Under the pieces are notes generated by a model. It saw only the letters and a program-made list of their open reading frames with translations, did no database searches and was not told the origin of the DNA. A program made the translations under genes and the position numbers. Positions 8,898 through 10,997 of a stretch of 64,000 bases of DNA are shown here, one piece after another (position 1 is the first letter of the stretch; each line of letters opens with the position of its first letter). Source of the DNA: Candidatus Altimarinota bacterium (GTDB taxonomy: Bacteria; Patescibacteriota; Gracilibacteria; BD1-5; UBA2023); assembly GCA_041909865.1 (NCBI GenBank), contig JAYRRZ010000040.1, forward strand, positions 10,984 to 74,983. Direction: 5' to 3'.

Positions 8898-9506
8898 TTA
8901 GTTATAGTTTTGCTTTTCGAAAAGAGGTCGATACATGTCATCTTCGGGCGCAATAATAAGATTTTCCCTTATCTGTCGCTCAGAAGTGAACGTACATCAT
9001 CATTCCTCGATGATTGCGAGGGGCTGACATTCATCCCCTTCTCCCATGGTATGTACTGCGCTGACAGCAAGAGCATCTGGCATATTCGTTCGCGCGAACA
9101 GAAATGGTCTACCAAAAATATCTGCCTTCCCTGTATAATCACGAATTCACTCAAATCCTGCATGTCAGAGGGATATTCCAATGGTTCCATTTCGAAACGG
9201 AATTGTTCGTGAATCAGTGATAATGATACCAAGTTGTTTGAGGCCGTAGTATTCACGAAGCTCTTCCCAGGTTTTAAGAGCACTTTCATATGAATCTCGT
9301 GGAAGCAGTATACATTTTCAGTTTCCATTGGATTCATCAATTCCAGCATTTGCCATTGGCATACCATCATGCATCGTGAGATGTACATACTTTGTCTGTG
9401 CATACCAGGTACTTTCAGACTTCACATATTCGAGTTTTTCCTCTTTGGTATTTGCGAAAAATGTTCGAGATTCTGCGAGAGCAACAATTTTTGAGGTGAT
9501 TACCAA
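8898..9506 (-). CDS. Coenzyme F420:L-glutamate ligase (CofE)-like protein; N-terminus uncertain
   Basis: ITSKIVALAESR, NAGIDESN, ITDSRTIPFRNGTIGISLG, GEGDECQPLAIIEEGG. The homology continues upstream to an ATG at 9603-9605 but is interrupted by an in-frame TAA at 9561-9563. Confidence 0.6.
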
Positions 9507-9586
9507 TATACTTTTTTCGTAAAGTATCGGTATATGTTCGATGATGAAGTCGAAGAGGTTTTATCATTCGAGAAAAATTCGAGTTT

Positions 9587-10213
9587 TTATTGCTGTGGTG
9601 ATCATTTTCAGAGAAGAGAGAGGATAAAGTAGGAGATTGGAGTATAGCAAAGTCCACCAAGTACTTTGTACATCCACCAAGGAATGGCCATCATAATGAT
9701 TTTTTCTGGTGAAAATACCCCGATAAAGGCAATACTCATAAATACGGCTGTATCTATTGCTTGGGAAATTATATTCGAGAAGATGGAAGCAAAGAAGAAG
9801 TTATCCCAGAGTCTCTTTCCGAGAAAAAATGTGAGTACATCGATATACTCAGAACAGAAATAAGCAACGAGTGAGGCGACTCAGATCCGCCATGAGAGCG
9901 AAAAAATCGTATCATAGGCATCACCGATTCTTGTATAGGTGGCTCAAGACCACGGGACAGTATTGGCAAGGAGAGTCCCCAGAATAAAAATTATGAGCGC
10001 CGTAAATCCAGAAAAAACGAAGAGTTTCGCTGTTTCCTTTCCATAGAGTTGACCAACGATATCGGTCGTGATAAATACAATCGGCATAATGAAGACAGCA
10101 ACTGATAGATGGGTTCCGAACACAAATGGCATAGTTTTCATCCCGAGGAGATTGCTCGCAAAGAGTGCAGAAATATATACTGCAAGGAGAAAAAAGAGTT
10201 TTTGATTGAACAT
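9587..10213 (-). CDS. yhhQ: Queuosine-precursor transporter YhhQ / VUT (DUF165) family membrane protein
   Basis: ORF 9944..10279 (Met at 10213) extends through TGAs to TAA at 9587-9589. ASNLLGMK...FIMPIVFITTDIVGQLYGKETAKLFV is typical of the family. Confidence 0.7.
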
Positions 10214-10231
10214 AAGTCGTTGATTTTTAGA

Positions 10232-10345
10232 CAAATAAAAACACCCGAAAACGGGTGTTATAGAAATGTCTAAAAACAACCCGTTATGCGAGTGGAGTGT
10301 GGATAAATCCAGACCAAGTGATGAGACGTTTTGATATGAGCATGG
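10232..10345 (-). ncRNA. Leader RNA copy 1: conserved 5' core plus intrinsic terminator, 18 nt upstream of the yhhQ ATG
   Basis: The 39-nt core (10306-10344) differs from copy 2 at 2 positions. Terminator hairpin CACCCG-UUUU-CGGGUG (10241-10258) plus a U-run. An upstream ACGGGUUGUUUUU segment mimics the terminator 3' half. Confidence 0.55.
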
Positions 10346-10350
10346 GTGGA

Positions 10351-10379
10351 ATTATAGGGAGAATTTTTAGTTTTTGCAG
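10351..10379 (-). promoter_or_regulatory. Promoter of leader RNA copy 1 / yhhQ
   Basis: On the minus strand, CTGCAA (10379-10374), a 17-nt spacer, then TATAAT (10356-10351). Confidence 0.5.
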
Positions 10380-10398
10380 ATTTGTTTTTGAAGAGCAT

Positions 10399-10566
10399 TT
10401 ATCGTGGTAATTTTTCCCCTGAGAGCTTCTCTGATACTATCCATGTTATCCCGAGAATAATCTCACGAAGAGTTTTACTTAGACGAAAATGAGTATCCAT
10501 CAAACTTTCAGCCTGAAGTTTTCGGAGCTTGTTACGAGCATGTTCTGCATATTCTAAAAAGTTCAT
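10399..10566 (-). CDS. Small hypothetical protein (55 aa) downstream of leader RNA copy 2
   Basis: MNFLEYAEHARNKLRKLQAESLMDTHFRLSKTLREIILGITWIVSEKLSGEKLPR. The ATG lies 15 nt after the copy-2 terminator. No homology recognised. Confidence 0.35.
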   Translation of the reverse strand: MNFLEYAEHARNKLRKLQAESLMDTHFRLSKTLREIILGITWIVSEKLSGEKLPR

Positions 10567-10581
10567 AATTCTAAAGAGAGA

Positions 10582-10718
10582 AAATAAAAAGCACCCAATG
10601 GAACGGGTGCTTTTGTTGGATACAACTAGTTTAGTTAGTAGCAAAAAGAGCAACCCGTGATAGAGAGGTGCACGATATGAATCCAGACCAAGAGATGAGA
10701 CGTTTTGATATGAACATG
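10582..10718 (-). ncRNA. Leader RNA copy 2: conserved 5' core plus intrinsic terminator
   Basis: Core at 10680-10718. Terminator GCACCCG-UUCCAUU-GGGUGC (10591-10610) plus a U-run. An upstream ACGGGUUGCUCUUUUUG segment mimics the terminator 3' half. Confidence 0.55.
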
Positions 10719-10723
10719 AGATA

Positions 10724-10751
10724 ATTATAGAGAAAAGTCCGATAATTGCAA
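10724..10751 (-). promoter_or_regulatory. Promoter of leader RNA copy 2
   Basis: On the minus strand, TTGCAA (10751-10746), a 16-nt spacer, then TATAAT (10729-10724). Confidence 0.55.
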
Positions 10752-10769
10752 GGGAAAAGAACGAAGTAT

Positions 10770-10997
10770 TTATATCTCTGTGAATCTCTGCACTCGCTGT
10801 CCCTGCCATTCGATGATATCGAACCACATCGAGAGTGGACGTGTGTAGAGGTGTCACTCTCCATAGAGCGCACGATAGACCACCATTGCTTCTCCAGTTT
10901 CTGAGTGTTCGGCAATATCAACTACTTCGTATGTGTAATCCTCTCCTCCAGAGGATTTGTAGTGGCGCCAGTGGGAATGGGGAAGAGGGGATTTCAT
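10770..10997 (-). CDS. DUF1653-family small protein
   Basis: HWRHYKSSGGEDYTYEVVDIAEHSETGEAMVVYRALYGE-G-HLYTRPLSMWFD...RFTEI, with one in-frame TGA. Confidence 0.6.

What the first reader, a model, noticed from the sequence alone, without database searches (positions are those of the whole stretch)
10232..10751. Duplicated promoter, conserved-core and terminator leader RNA upstream of yhhQ and of a small ORF (riboswitch- or attenuator-like, unclassified)
Seen: two minus-strand units share the same architecture.
- Each has its own sigma70-like promoter: TTGCAA-16-TATAAT at 10751-10724, and CTGCAA-17-TATAAT at 10379-10351.
- The transcript then opens with a 39-nt core, CAUG[C/U]UCAUAUCAAAACGUCUCAUC[A/U]CUUGGUCUGGAUU. 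The two copies (10344-10306 and 10718-10680) differ at only 2 positions.
- A more divergent stretch follows, ending in ACGGGUUG...UUUU.
- A strong intrinsic terminator (10258-10241; 10610-10591) ends 18 and 15 nt before an ATG (yhhQ, and a 55-aa ORF).
- In both copies the ACGGGUUG(C)U..UUUU segment imitates the 3' half of its own terminator. It could therefore pair with the CACCCG 5' half as an antiterminator. The sequence changes between copies track each other (GUGUUUUU versus GUGCUUUUU).
- In copy 1 a 9-bp helix, UUUUUAGAC/GUCUAAAAA, additionally encloses the terminator.

Established: this promoter, aptamer, terminator and ATG layout is the classical transcription-attenuation riboswitch layout. 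YhhQ-type queuosine-precursor transporters are preQ1-riboswitch regulated in other bacteria.

Inference: this is a cis-regulatory RNA class I cannot match to preQ1-I, TPP, T-box or any other motif I know. Alternatively it is a duplicated small RNA gene.
Basis: partly seen in the sequence, partly recalled or inferred. Interest (0 to 1): 0.75.

Follow-up and report, generated by a model that had tools for sequence, protein, structure and literature searches.

The report
Folate-operon leader-peptide transcription attenuator
The duplicated "RNA core" is the start of a tiny translated gene, and ribosome position on it most likely decides whether a terminator forms ahead of folate-uptake and folate-synthesis genes in Gracilibacteria, making it a new family of a classic kind of bacterial switch.

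Summary
In detail: two minus-strand units, each with a promoter, a 39-nt core, a terminator mimic and a terminator, sit before orf55 and yhhQ. The interpretation needs revising. The core starts with an ATG 6-7 nt after the -10 box and is a translated ORF. In 13 relatives found only through YhhQ, variation by codon position is 7.9/2.7/16.9 (p~1e-5). Synonymous:non-synonymous differences are 366:306 in that frame against 69:608 and 40:655. The conserved Gly is GGA, GGT or, in two code-25 relatives, TGA. The peptide M-[LI]-[LIM]-S-x-R-L-[IT]-T-W-S-[GS]-F-[IV] occurs in 36 distinct units without indels. Peptide-level selection ends at codon 14. After that come four RNA segments (1:2, 2:3, 3:4 plus U-run) at fixed distances. 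The core has no conserved base pair and no Rfam, Pfam or NCBIfam match. The genes behind it are YhhQ with FolC2-like, DHFR or FolC genes, FolC alone, or FolK-FolP, so the regulon is folate, not queuosine. Best explanation: a mostly leaderless leader-peptide attenuator in which a ribosome held at codon 14/15 favours the antiterminator. The signal is unknown and nothing has been tested experimentally. It is a new variant of a known kind.

The parts
10746..10751 (-). Unit 2: -35 hexamer TTGCAA
   Evidence: Promoter scan, 10 of 12 matches with 16-nt spacer. A -35-like hexamer 16 nt upstream of the -10 box recurs in most homologous units.
10724..10729 (-). Unit 2: -10 hexamer TATAAT, ending 6 nt before the leader ATG (leaderless geometry)
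   Evidence: The -10 box ends 6 nt (22 units) or 7 nt (5 units) before the ATG in 27 of 32 units with a recognisable hexamer.
10631..10717 (-). Unit 2: leader ORF, 28 codons plus TAA (MFISKRLISWSGFISCTSLSRVALFATN). The conserved 14 codons are 10676-10717. This is the long class, in which the ORF reads through segment 2.
   Evidence: Translation, codon-position statistics, family comparison.
10666..10671 (-). Unit 2: segment 1 (GCACCU), resembling the terminator's 5' arm; it can pair with segment 2 or segment 4
   Evidence: Folds. The 1:2 region folds at -5.0 kcal/mol.
10650..10657 (-). Unit 2: segment 2 (CGGGUUGC), the antiterminator strand that pairs with segment 3
   Evidence: The transcript made before segment 4 exists pairs segments 2 and 3 (-15.0 kcal/mol).
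10586..10610 (-). Unit 2: intrinsic terminator. Segment 3 GCACCCG (10604-10610), loop, segment 4 UGGGUGC (10591-10597), U5 (10586-10590).
   Evidence: Terminator scan; hairpin -11.3 kcal/mol.
10399..10566 (-). orf55: conserved 55-aa protein of unknown function (C-terminus ...KLPR); the first gene behind the leader in many species
   Evidence: No Pfam or NCBIfam match.
10351..10379 (-). Unit 1: promoter. Weak -35 box CTGCAA (10374-10379), 17-nt spacer, -10 box TATAAT (10351-10356) ending 7 nt before the leader ATG.
   Evidence: Not reported by the consensus scan because the -35 box matches only 3 of 6.
10284..10343 (-). Unit 1: leader ORF, 19 codons plus TAA (MLISKRLITWSGFIHTPLA). The conserved 14 codons are 10302-10343. 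This is the short class, in which the stop codon abuts segment 2.
   Evidence: The stop is at nt 58-60 and segment 2 starts at nt 61 in all 21 short-class units.
10289..10294 (-). Unit 1: segment 1 (CACUCG), nt 50-55 of the ORF, 8 nt past conserved codon 14
   Evidence: The 1:2 hairpin ACUCG/CGGGU is -3.7 kcal/mol and is also picked up by the scan.
10277..10283 (-). Unit 1: segment 2 (CGGGUUG), the antiterminator strand directly after the stop codon
   Evidence: The best partner of segment 3 lies at nt 60-70 in all 31 units tested.
10237..10257 (-). Unit 1: intrinsic terminator. Segment 3 CACCCG (10252-10257), loop UUUU, segment 4 CGGGUG (10242-10247), U5 (10237-10241).
   Evidence: Terminator scan; -9.3 kcal/mol; 100 % paired in 20 homologues with one compensatory change.
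9587..10213 (-). Regulated gene: Vut_1/YhhQ-family transporter (208 aa, with in-frame TGA read as Gly)
   Evidence: Pfam PF02592, E = 1.5e-31; homologues P0001-P0049.
8898..9605 (-). Regulated operon partner: F420-ligase/CofE-like gene (FolC2 type) overlapping the end of yhhQ
   Evidence: PF01996 on the orthologue in L001 and in most relatives. The chlamydial CofE homologue complements an E. coli folC mutant (PMC1971073).

Best explanation
Each unit is a ribosome-dependent transcription attenuator built on a translated, mostly leaderless leader ORF.

Transcription starts at or next to the AUG. The first 14 codons encode a conserved peptide, M-[LI]-[LIM]-S-x-R-L-[IT]-T-W-S-[GS]-F-[IV]. Four RNA segments follow at fixed distances:
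- segment 1, nt ~50-56;
- segment 2, nt ~60-70;
- segments 3 and 4, which form the intrinsic terminator.

Inferred logic:
- A ribosome held at codon 14/15 covers segment 1. Segment 2 is then free to pair with segment 3 (antiterminator), and RNA polymerase reads into the operon.
- A ribosome that runs on to the stop codon covers segment 2. The stop abuts segment 2 in the short class and lies beyond it in the long class. Segments 3 and 4 then terminate transcription.
- Without translation, 1:2 and 3:4 form and transcription also terminates.

The regulated genes are folate uptake, salvage and synthesis genes: the YhhQ-family transporter with FolC2-like, DHFR or FolC genes, FolC alone, or FolK-FolP. 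The switch therefore most likely reports folate status. The nascent 14-residue peptide would act as the sensor, like an arrest peptide, rather than a run of codons.

Shown from sequence: the ORF is under protein-level selection, the segment architecture is conserved, and the element is associated with folate genes. Inferred: the stall site, the direction of regulation and the signal.
For: Translated ORF:
- In 13 units found through YhhQ only, so unbiased with respect to the motif, column entropy by codon position is 7.93/2.68/16.86 (permutation p ~1e-5).
- Synonymous:non-synonymous codon differences are 366:306 in the ATG frame against 69:608 and 40:655 in the other two frames.
- Arg6 is CGT, CGC, CGA or AGA. 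Leu7 is CTC, CTT or TTA. Gly12 is GGA, GGT or TGA, and TGA is a sense codon only under code 25.
- The ATG is invariant and there is no indel in codons 1-14 in 36 distinct units.
- Periodicity is 4.2/0.8/13.0 for codons 2-14 and disappears for codons 15-19 (6.8/5.9/3.8).
- A standard-code relative has exactly 14 codons and then TAA, 2 nt before a hairpin that sequesters the Shine-Dalgarno sequence (SD).

Not an aptamer:
- RNAalifold finds 0 conserved pairs in the core.
- There is no Rfam family at gathering score.

Leaderless geometry:
- The -10 box ends 6-7 nt before the ATG in 27 of 32 units.

Attenuator:
- A terminator is present in every informative unit, 100 % paired in 20 homologues with one compensatory C-G to U-A change.
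- Segment 3's best upstream partner lies at nt 60-70 in 31 of 31 units.
- The 2:3 helix is 95.7 % paired against 32-62 % when slid.
- In the long class, segments 2 and 3 are both extended (CGCGGGU with ACCCGCG).
- The transcript made before segment 4 exists already folds as 2:3.

Regulon:
- Downstream genes were identified by Pfam and BLAST and by the gene calls.
Against: - There are no experimental data of any kind: no mapped transcription start, no ribosome occupancy, no measured termination.
- Two-sided covariation in the RNA helices is scarce. There is one compensatory pair in the terminator and none in the short-class 2:3 helix, so the helices rest mostly on conserved complementarity among related sequences.
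- The 1:2 hairpin is weak in the short class (-2 to -7 kcal/mol).
- In the short class the 2:3 helix is itself followed by U4-5, so it might act as a weak terminator rather than a clean antiterminator.
- There is no run of regulatory codons, and no known way for a ribosome to read folate status.
- Five species have the leader ATG 10-13 nt after the nrdB stop with no obvious promoter. Three have a longer 5' UTR.
- The L016/L017 lineage has a different helix arrangement that I could not map onto the four-segment scheme.
- The 25 genome hits and 6 metagenome hits were found with a codon-degenerate pattern. They cannot add to the coding test, so only the 13 YhhQ-anchored units were used for it.
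Confidence: 0.72

Rival explanations
1. Metabolite-binding riboswitch: the 39-nt core is an aptamer (for preQ0/preQ1, a folate or another ligand) that controls the terminator directly, without translation.
For: The layout of promoter, conserved element, terminator mimic, terminator and ATG is riboswitch-like. YhhQ genes are preQ1-riboswitch regulated in other bacteria (established knowledge).
Against: The core varies mainly at third codon positions, with synonymous two-position changes (CGT/AGA, CTC/TTA) and GGA/TGA at one residue. RNAalifold finds no conserved pair in it. No Rfam family reaches threshold, and the weak hits are only terminator look-alikes. 42 nt of unstructured, U/A-rich sequence is an implausible aptamer.
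Confidence: 0.03
2. The small ORF encodes a functional micro-protein, or the ~105-130-nt terminated transcript is a small RNA acting in trans. On this view the terminator is just an ordinary, leaky gene boundary and not a regulated switch.
For: There is a strong promoter, a conserved peptide and an efficient-looking terminator. Conservation of the peptide's N-terminus is typical of a protein product.
Against: - Only 14 residues are conserved, and the tail varies freely in sequence and length (14-28 aa).
- The stop codon sits in a fixed position relative to segment 2, and segment 1 in a fixed position relative to codon 14.
- A conserved alternative 2:3 pairing overlaps the terminator.
- The unit is always in cis, in the same orientation, directly upstream of folate-related operons, even when the first gene differs.
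Confidence: 0.1
3. Classical amino-acid-supply attenuator: the single invariant Trp codon (or Ser/Gly codons) senses the charged-tRNA level, as in the trp leader.
For: Four-segment architecture with the stop codon just before segment 2, as in trpL. TGG is invariant.
Against: There is no run of any codon. The whole 14-residue peptide is conserved rather than one codon. The regulated genes are folate genes, not tryptophan genes. Position 12 alternates between Gly and Ser, so neither can be the sensed residue.
Confidence: 0.05
4. Constitutive or growth-rate attenuator: leader translation simply couples operon transcription to overall translational capacity, with no specific sensing of folate.
For: No ligand or codon logic can be read from the sequence. 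Leaderless initiation depends on the general state of the initiation machinery (established knowledge).
Against: A generic coupling device would not need a peptide conserved across 36 units and two genetic codes. It would also not be restricted to one functional regulon.
Confidence: 0.08

Closest known systems
Ribosome-mediated transcription attenuators of amino-acid operons (trpL, hisL, pheL, thrL, leuL, ilvL)
   Same: A short translated leader ORF. Four RNA segments with mutually exclusive 1:2/3:4 and 2:3 pairings. An intrinsic terminator before the first structural gene. The leader stop codon is placed so that a terminating ribosome covers segment 2.
   Different: No run of codons for a cognate amino acid; instead a whole 14-residue peptide is conserved. 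The mRNA is mostly leaderless. The regulated pathway is a vitamin (folate), not an amino acid. The hosts are Patescibacteria, mostly with TGA read as Gly.
Metabolite-sensing arrest peptides TnaC (L-Trp) and SpeFL (ornithine) (PMC8429421, PMC8450073, bioRxiv 10.1101/604074; listed)
   Same: A short leader peptide conserved at the amino-acid level, with an invariant Trp about 10 residues from the N-terminus. The ribosome-nascent-chain complex is the presumed sensor, and the output is transcription of the downstream operon.
   Different: No sequence similarity (no NCBIfam or Pfam hit). TnaC and SpeFL act by blocking Rho-dependent termination (established knowledge), whereas here the output is an intrinsic terminator/antiterminator. 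Stalling and a ligand are not demonstrated here.
Leaderless polycysteine short-ORF attenuators of mycobacteria, the 'Cys ribulon' (bioRxiv 10.1101/834739)
   Same: A leaderless short ORF is the first cistron. The position of the stalled ribosome remodels downstream RNA structure. One peptide type coordinates several operons of one pathway.
   Different: Those sense Cys-tRNA through Cys codon runs and act by unmasking a ribosome-binding site. Here there is no codon run and the output is an intrinsic terminator. Only the Saccharibacteria-labelled variant L036 has an SD-sequestering hairpin.
THF-I/THF-II and ZTP riboswitches
   Same: They are functional analogues: cis-regulators of folate transport, folate biosynthesis and one-carbon genes that often act through a terminator (established knowledge).
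   Different: They are RNA aptamers. The window has no match to any of them, and the conserved part here is protein-coding.
preQ1-I/II/III riboswitches upstream of yhhQ/COG1738
   Same: They lie upstream of a YhhQ-family transporter and have a terminator-based expression platform.
   Different: No Rfam match and no aptamer. The gene context is folate, not queuosine.

Membership tests
Leader-peptide (ribosome-mediated) transcription attenuator | Short ORF in the leader that is translated | tested here: met
   Codon-position entropy 7.9/2.7/16.9 (p ~1e-5). Synonymous:non-synonymous 366:306 against 69:608 and 40:655 in the other frames. Gly is encoded by GGA, GGT or TGA. This is evolutionary evidence only; there is no ribosome profiling.
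Leader-peptide (ribosome-mediated) transcription attenuator | Intrinsic terminator between the leader ORF and the first structural gene | tested here: met
   GC-rich hairpin of -6 to -13 kcal/mol followed by U5-8 in every unit where the region could be read.
Leader-peptide (ribosome-mediated) transcription attenuator | Alternative antiterminator pairing that overlaps the terminator's 5' arm, positioned so that ribosome location selects the fold | tested here: met
   Segment 2 lies at nt 60-70 in 31 of 31 units. The helix is 95.7 % paired against 32-62 % when slid. The stop codon abuts segment 2 in 21 of 21 short-class units, and segment 1 is 8 nt after codon 14 in both classes. Caveat: there is almost no two-sided covariation.
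Leader-peptide (ribosome-mediated) transcription attenuator | Run of codons for the amino acid whose supply is sensed | tested here: not met
   No repeated codon. The conserved unit is a 14-residue peptide.
Leader-peptide (ribosome-mediated) transcription attenuator | Regulated premature termination observed experimentally | not testable with these tools
Metabolite-sensing arrest peptides (TnaC, SpeFL type) | Regulatory information lies in the amino-acid sequence of the nascent chain | tested here: met
   The peptide is conserved through synonymous changes and across two genetic codes. Selection stops exactly at codon 14.
Metabolite-sensing arrest peptides (TnaC, SpeFL type) | Sequence membership in a described arrest or leader-peptide family | tested here: not met
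   No NCBIfam or Pfam hit even at E = 10.
Metabolite-sensing arrest peptides (TnaC, SpeFL type) | Ligand-dependent ribosome stalling at a defined codon | not testable with these tools
   Needs toeprinting or cryo-EM. The stall site at codon 14/15 is inferred from geometry only.
Riboswitch (any class, including preQ1, THF, ZTP) | Match to a described aptamer family | tested here: not met
   0 Rfam matches at gathering score in 64 kb. The best sub-threshold hits (E >= 0.04) are terminator look-alikes.
Riboswitch (any class, including preQ1, THF, ZTP) | Conserved secondary structure with covariation in the ligand-binding domain | tested here: not met
   RNAalifold on 13 cores gives 0 pairs. The substitutions follow codon positions instead.
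Leaderless short-ORF attenuators (mycobacterial type) | Transcription starts at the start codon of the sensory short ORF | tested here: inconclusive
   The -10 hexamer ends 6-7 nt before the ATG in 27 of 32 units, which predicts a start at the A of AUG. No 5' end has been mapped, and 8 units deviate.
Leaderless short-ORF attenuators (mycobacterial type) | Codon run (Cys) as sensor and unmasking of a ribosome-binding site as output | tested here: not met
   No codon run. The output is an intrinsic terminator. The window genome hardly uses SD sequences (3 of 63 ORFs). Only L036 has an SD-sequestering hairpin.
Trans-acting small RNA gene | Genomic position independent of the regulated genes | tested here: not met
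   All informative units lie directly upstream of, and in the same orientation as, YhhQ, orf55, FolC, FolK-FolP or NlpC/P60 genes.

The most novel reading that the evidence does not exclude
The leaderless 14-residue nascent peptide may be a ribosome-borne sensor of one-carbon/folate status.

One version is that it reads whether Met1 carries the 10-formyl-THF-dependent N-formyl group. The distance from Met1 to the stall site is fixed and free of indels, residues 2-4 are conserved, and the mRNA is leaderless; all three would fit this. An unformylated chain would stall at codon 14/15 and switch the folate operon on.

A second version is that the peptide binds a folate or pterin in the exit tunnel, as TnaC binds Trp. 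Either would be the first vitamin-sensing arrest peptide, and the first regulatory mechanism described for Gracilibacteria.
Probability: 0.12. Interest if true: 0.9.

Novelty: new variant of a known kind. Interest (0 to 1): 0.62.

Why it matters
- Leader-peptide attenuation is textbook for amino-acid operons. I found no report of it controlling a vitamin pathway, and no cis-regulatory mechanism described for Gracilibacteria or related CPR bacteria.
- If the peptide is a sensor, ribosomes in these minimal, uncultivated, recoded bacteria would read folate or one-carbon status directly. They would be doing the job that THF and ZTP riboswitches do elsewhere.
- The element is a compact marker of a folate regulon. 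It re-annotates a YhhQ-family "queuosine precursor transporter" as a probable folate or pterin carrier.
- It also links three proteins to folate metabolism: orf55, DUF1653 (unknown function) and an NlpC/P60 protein whose role here is unknown.
- The TGA-for-Gly substitution inside a 14-codon regulatory ORF is an internal confirmation of code 25.
- The peptide is short enough to test directly in a reconstituted translation system.

Tried and rejected
- Rfam, whole window at gathering score and the region at E <= 10: nothing but terminator look-alikes.
- The search for related loci with the YhhQ protein on species genomes: no confirmed relative. I replaced it with a protein search plus contig look-ups.
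- Aptamer hypothesis: rejected on codon periodicity and absence of conserved pairs.
- A Q-dependent codon idea (His/Asn/Asp/Tyr codons sensing queuosine): positions 5 and 15 carry such codons in some units, but they are variable. Rejected.
- A Gly or TGA-decoding sensor: position 12 alternates between Gly (GGA/GGT/GGC/TGA) and Ser (AGC/AGT). Rejected.
- My first automatic terminator caller was misled by internal U-runs. I redid it with explicit segment calling.
- The MAFFT alignment of the long class (A3) misaligned segment 2. I did not use it for pair counting and relied on duplex scans instead.
- NCBIfam and Pfam on the peptides and orf55: no hits.
This is uninformative because only a small part of each genome is held.
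- L049 matched the scan pattern but has no promoter, terminator or folate context. I treated it as a chance hit.
- Literature searches for a folate-linked leader peptide, a Gracilibacteria leader peptide, or CPR folate riboswitches: nothing relevant.
Full report
**1. The observation**

- Reading the minus strand shows two units with the architecture described. The 39-nt cores at 10344-10306 and 10718-10680 differ at two positions.
- A 20-mer from the core occurs exactly twice in the window. None of 100 dinucleotide-preserving shuffles gave two matches.
- An alignment of the two units shows conservation of the -35/-10 boxes, the core, ACGGGTTG and the terminator, with divergence between them.
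- An independent consensus scan finds both terminators and the unit-2 promoter (TTGCAA-16-TATAAT, 10 of 12 matches). The unit-1 -35 box is too weak for the scan, but its -10 box is a perfect TATAAT.
- Both units fold better than shuffled controls (z about -3.9). In both minimum-free-energy structures the ACGGGUUG segment pairs with the terminator's 5' arm.

**2. What the core is**

No Rfam family reaches its gathering score anywhere in the 64 kb. At permissive thresholds only terminator look-alikes appear.

The core begins with ATG, 6 nt (unit 2) or 7 nt (unit 1) after the -10 hexamer, and is open in that frame. Unit 1 encodes MLISKRLITWSGFIHTPLA and unit 2 encodes MFISKRLISWSGFISCTSLSRVALFATN. 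The window uses TGA as a sense codon: yhhQ and other genes are only intact under code 25.

To test coding without bias, I collected relatives through the YhhQ protein and not through the motif.
- The protein search returned 49 homologues from 97 % down to about 32 % identity.
- I fetched contigs for 12 of them.
- Every locus carries the same small ORF upstream.

Results over the 13 distinct YhhQ-anchored units:

| Measure | ATG frame | Other two frames |
|---|---|---|
| Column entropy by codon position 1/2/3 | 7.93 / 2.68 / 16.86 (permutation p ~1e-5) | n/a |
| Synonymous : non-synonymous codon differences | 366 : 306 | 69 : 608 and 40 : 655 |

- Arg6 is written CGT, CGC, CGA or AGA. Leu7 is CTC, CTT or TTA.
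- The conserved Gly12 is GGA, GGT or, in L016 and L017, TGA. TGA makes sense only if the region is translated under code 25.
- RNAalifold predicts no conserved base pair in the 42-nt core.
- In the 21 short-class units the periodicity is 4.2/0.8/13.0 for codons 2-14. It disappears for codons 15-19 (6.8/5.9/3.8), so peptide-level selection ends at codon 14.
- The core is therefore the conserved start of a translated leader ORF, not an aptamer.

**3. Spread**

- A codon-degenerate pattern of the peptide found 25 species-representative genomes. Most are labelled Candidatus Gracilibacteria; the rest carry Peribacteria, Patescibacteria-group or Saccharibacteria labels. It also found 6 metagenome contigs.
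- After dereplication there are 38 distinct units. One of them, L049, is a chance hit, and window unit 1 is counted under L001 because its first 150 nt are identical. That leaves 36 distinct units, with window unit 1 counted under L001.
- None has an indel between Met1 and residue 14.
- The Saccharibacteria-labelled contig L036 uses the standard code. Its ORF is exactly the 14 conserved codons followed by TAA. Two nt later a hairpin starts whose 3' arm contains AAGGAG, followed by U5 and the AUG of a YhhQ-like gene.
- The -10 hexamer ends 6 nt (22 units) or 7 nt (5 units) before the ATG in 27 of 32 units with a recognisable hexamer. This predicts a leaderless mRNA.
- Five species instead have the ATG 10-13 nt after the stop codon of the ribonucleotide-reductase small-subunit gene.
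- SD-like motifs precede only 3 of 63 long ORFs in the window, below the 11 % background. Lack of an SD is therefore normal here.

**4. The RNA switch**

There are two structural classes.
- Short class (window unit 1): 19 codons. The stop codon at nt 58-60 directly abuts segment 2 (CGGG...), which starts at nt 61.
- Long class (window unit 2): 25-28 codons. The ORF reads through segment 2.

Shared features:
- In both classes segment 1 sits at nt ~50-56, 8 nt past codon 14.
- The terminator (segments 3 and 4 plus a U-run) lies about 25-45 nt further on.
- The terminator helix is 100 % paired in 20 homologues, with one compensatory C-G to U-A change.
- The 2:3 helix is 95.7 % paired against 32-62 % for slid controls, but it has no two-sided change.
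- The best upstream partner of segment 3 lies at nt 60-70 in all 31 units tested. It is individually better than 95 % of shuffles in 18 of them.
- Between classes, segments 2 and 3 are extended together (CGCGGGU with ACCCGCG).
- The transcript made before segment 4 exists already folds as 2:3 in most units.
- The 1:2 hairpin is strong in the long class (-9 to -13 kcal/mol) and weak in the short class (-2 to -7 kcal/mol).

Caveats:
- Support comes from conserved complementarity among related sequences, not from rich covariation.
- In the short class the 2:3 helix is followed by U4-5.
- The L016/L017 lineage has a different helix arrangement.

**5. What it regulates**

The window yhhQ is a Vut_1 family member. 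In every relative it is in an operon with an F420-ligase/CofE-like gene, often with DHFR or RibD_C, or with FolC. The chlamydial CofE homologue complements an E. coli folC mutant, the FolC2 type (PMC1971073).

Across the 36 units:

| Gene set behind the leader | Units |
|---|---|
| Operon containing YhhQ | 24 |
| FolC | 5 |
| FolK-FolP fusion (HPPK + Pterin_bind) | 2 |
| NlpC/P60 protein | 4 |

- One YhhQ operon begins with a GNAT gene.
- A conserved 55-60-aa protein (orf55) is often the first cistron.
- DUF1653 recurs in these operons.
- The remaining units are followed by orf55 alone, by no identifiable gene, or sit at contig ends.
- This is a folate regulon, not a queuosine one.

**6. Mechanism**

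Shown from sequence:
- a translated 14-codon conserved ORF, mostly leaderless;
- a fixed distance from codon 14 to segment 1;
- a stop codon placed so that a terminating or continuing ribosome covers segment 2;
- competing 2:3 and 3:4 pairings.

Inferred:
- A ribosome held with codon 14 in the P site protects up to about nt 55 and masks segment 1. Segments 2 and 3 then pair, and transcription continues.
- A ribosome that proceeds masks segment 2, and segments 3 and 4 terminate transcription.
- With no ribosome, 1:2 and 3:4 form and terminate transcription.
- The L036 variant, in which the stop follows codon 14 and the hairpin starts 2 nt later, gives the same reading: a ribosome held there keeps the hairpin open.

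The whole peptide is conserved, there is no codon run, and selection stops exactly at codon 14. I therefore favour an arrest-peptide type of sensor. The signal is unknown. The candidates are a folate or pterin ligand bound with the nascent chain, or the formylation state of Met1.

**7. Comparison and novelty**

- The element works like a classical leader-peptide attenuator but fails that family's codon-run criterion.
- It resembles TnaC and SpeFL in having a conserved sensory peptide, but it shares no sequence with them and uses an intrinsic terminator.
- It shares leaderless short-ORF logic with the mycobacterial Cys attenuators.
- Literature searches found no folate-linked leader peptide and nothing on cis-regulation in Gracilibacteria.
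- I rate it a new variant of a known kind. It is well supported as a conserved element, while the mechanism is inferred from geometry.

**8. The two window copies**

- They belong to different classes, so they are not a simple duplication.
- Their cores differ by 4 of 42 nt, against 7 or more between unit 2 and any other unit. This could reflect shared codon preference or gene conversion.
- Strains with 97-99 % identical YhhQ (L001, L002, L051) lack unit 2 and orf55 altogether.

Noticed in passing
window 9587-10213 (-) and 8898-9605 (-); L006, L012, L014, L016, L026, L041: The Vut_1/YhhQ homologue, usually annotated as a queuosine-precursor transporter, is always in an operon with folate genes: a CofE-like FolC2-type gene, DHFR/RibD_C, or FolC. 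In this lineage it is probably a folate or pterin carrier.
   Followed up: partly
window 10399-10566 (-); homologues in L006, L010, L014, L019, L027, L029-L031, L033, L039, L044, L047: orf55 is a conserved 55-85-aa protein ending in ...(K/R)LPR and is often the first cistron behind the leader. It has no Pfam or NCBIfam match and its function is unknown.
   Followed up: partly
window 10770-10997 (-); L014, L026, L027, L047: DUF1653 lies immediately upstream of unit 2 in the window and recurs inside or next to the leader-controlled operons in other species. This hints at a folate-related role for this domain of unknown function.
   Followed up: no
L001/L002/L051 nt ~2700-2870 compared with window 10399-10760: Strains with 97-99 % identical YhhQ lack unit 2 and orf55 at the same locus. 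They carry instead a spacer with a palindromic MITE-like element (GTCATTCTGAG...). A similar palindrome (GTCATTCCTGCGAAGGCAGGAATC) is inserted in the loop of the 2:3 helix of L005.
   Followed up: no
L036 6150-6285 (same contig as L052): A standard-code MAG labelled Saccharibacteria has a minimal variant. A leaderless 14-codon ORF (MIISKRLITWSSFI) is followed by TAA, then the hairpin ACUCCUC...AAGGAGU plus U5, which sequesters an SD 6 nt before a YhhQ-like AUG. The output may be translational as well as transcriptional.
   Followed up: partly
L022, L030, L033, L035, L039 (upstream of the leader ATG): In five species the leader ATG lies 10-13 nt after the stop codon of the ribonucleotide-reductase small-subunit gene with no clear promoter. 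The leader may be co-transcribed with nrdB there. Ribonuc_red_sm is also a neighbour in several other loci.
   Followed up: partly
L033, L042, L043, L047 (about 310-850 nt after the leader ATG); L026 135-636: An NlpC/P60-family protein (164-169 aa) and a GNAT acetyltransferase are under the same leader in some species. Whether the NlpC/P60 protein cleaves gamma-glutamyl tails of folates is speculation.
   Followed up: no
whole window: TGA is a sense codon (code 25 type). SD-like motifs precede only 3 of 63 long ORFs, below the 11 % background. No Rfam family, including tRNA, reaches gathering score anywhere in the 64 kb.
   Followed up: partly
window 10268-10276 and 10223-10231 (-); L003, L032: The 9-bp helix UUUUUAGAC/GUCUAAAAA that brackets the unit-1 terminator is conserved only in the closest relatives. 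It ends about 10 nt before the yhhQ AUG and might affect yhhQ translation after read-through.
   Followed up: no
short-class units, codon 7 (window 10323-10325): Leu7 is CTC in all 21 short-class units although the scan pattern allowed YTN. This suggests an extra nucleotide-level or decoding-speed constraint at this codon.
   Followed up: no
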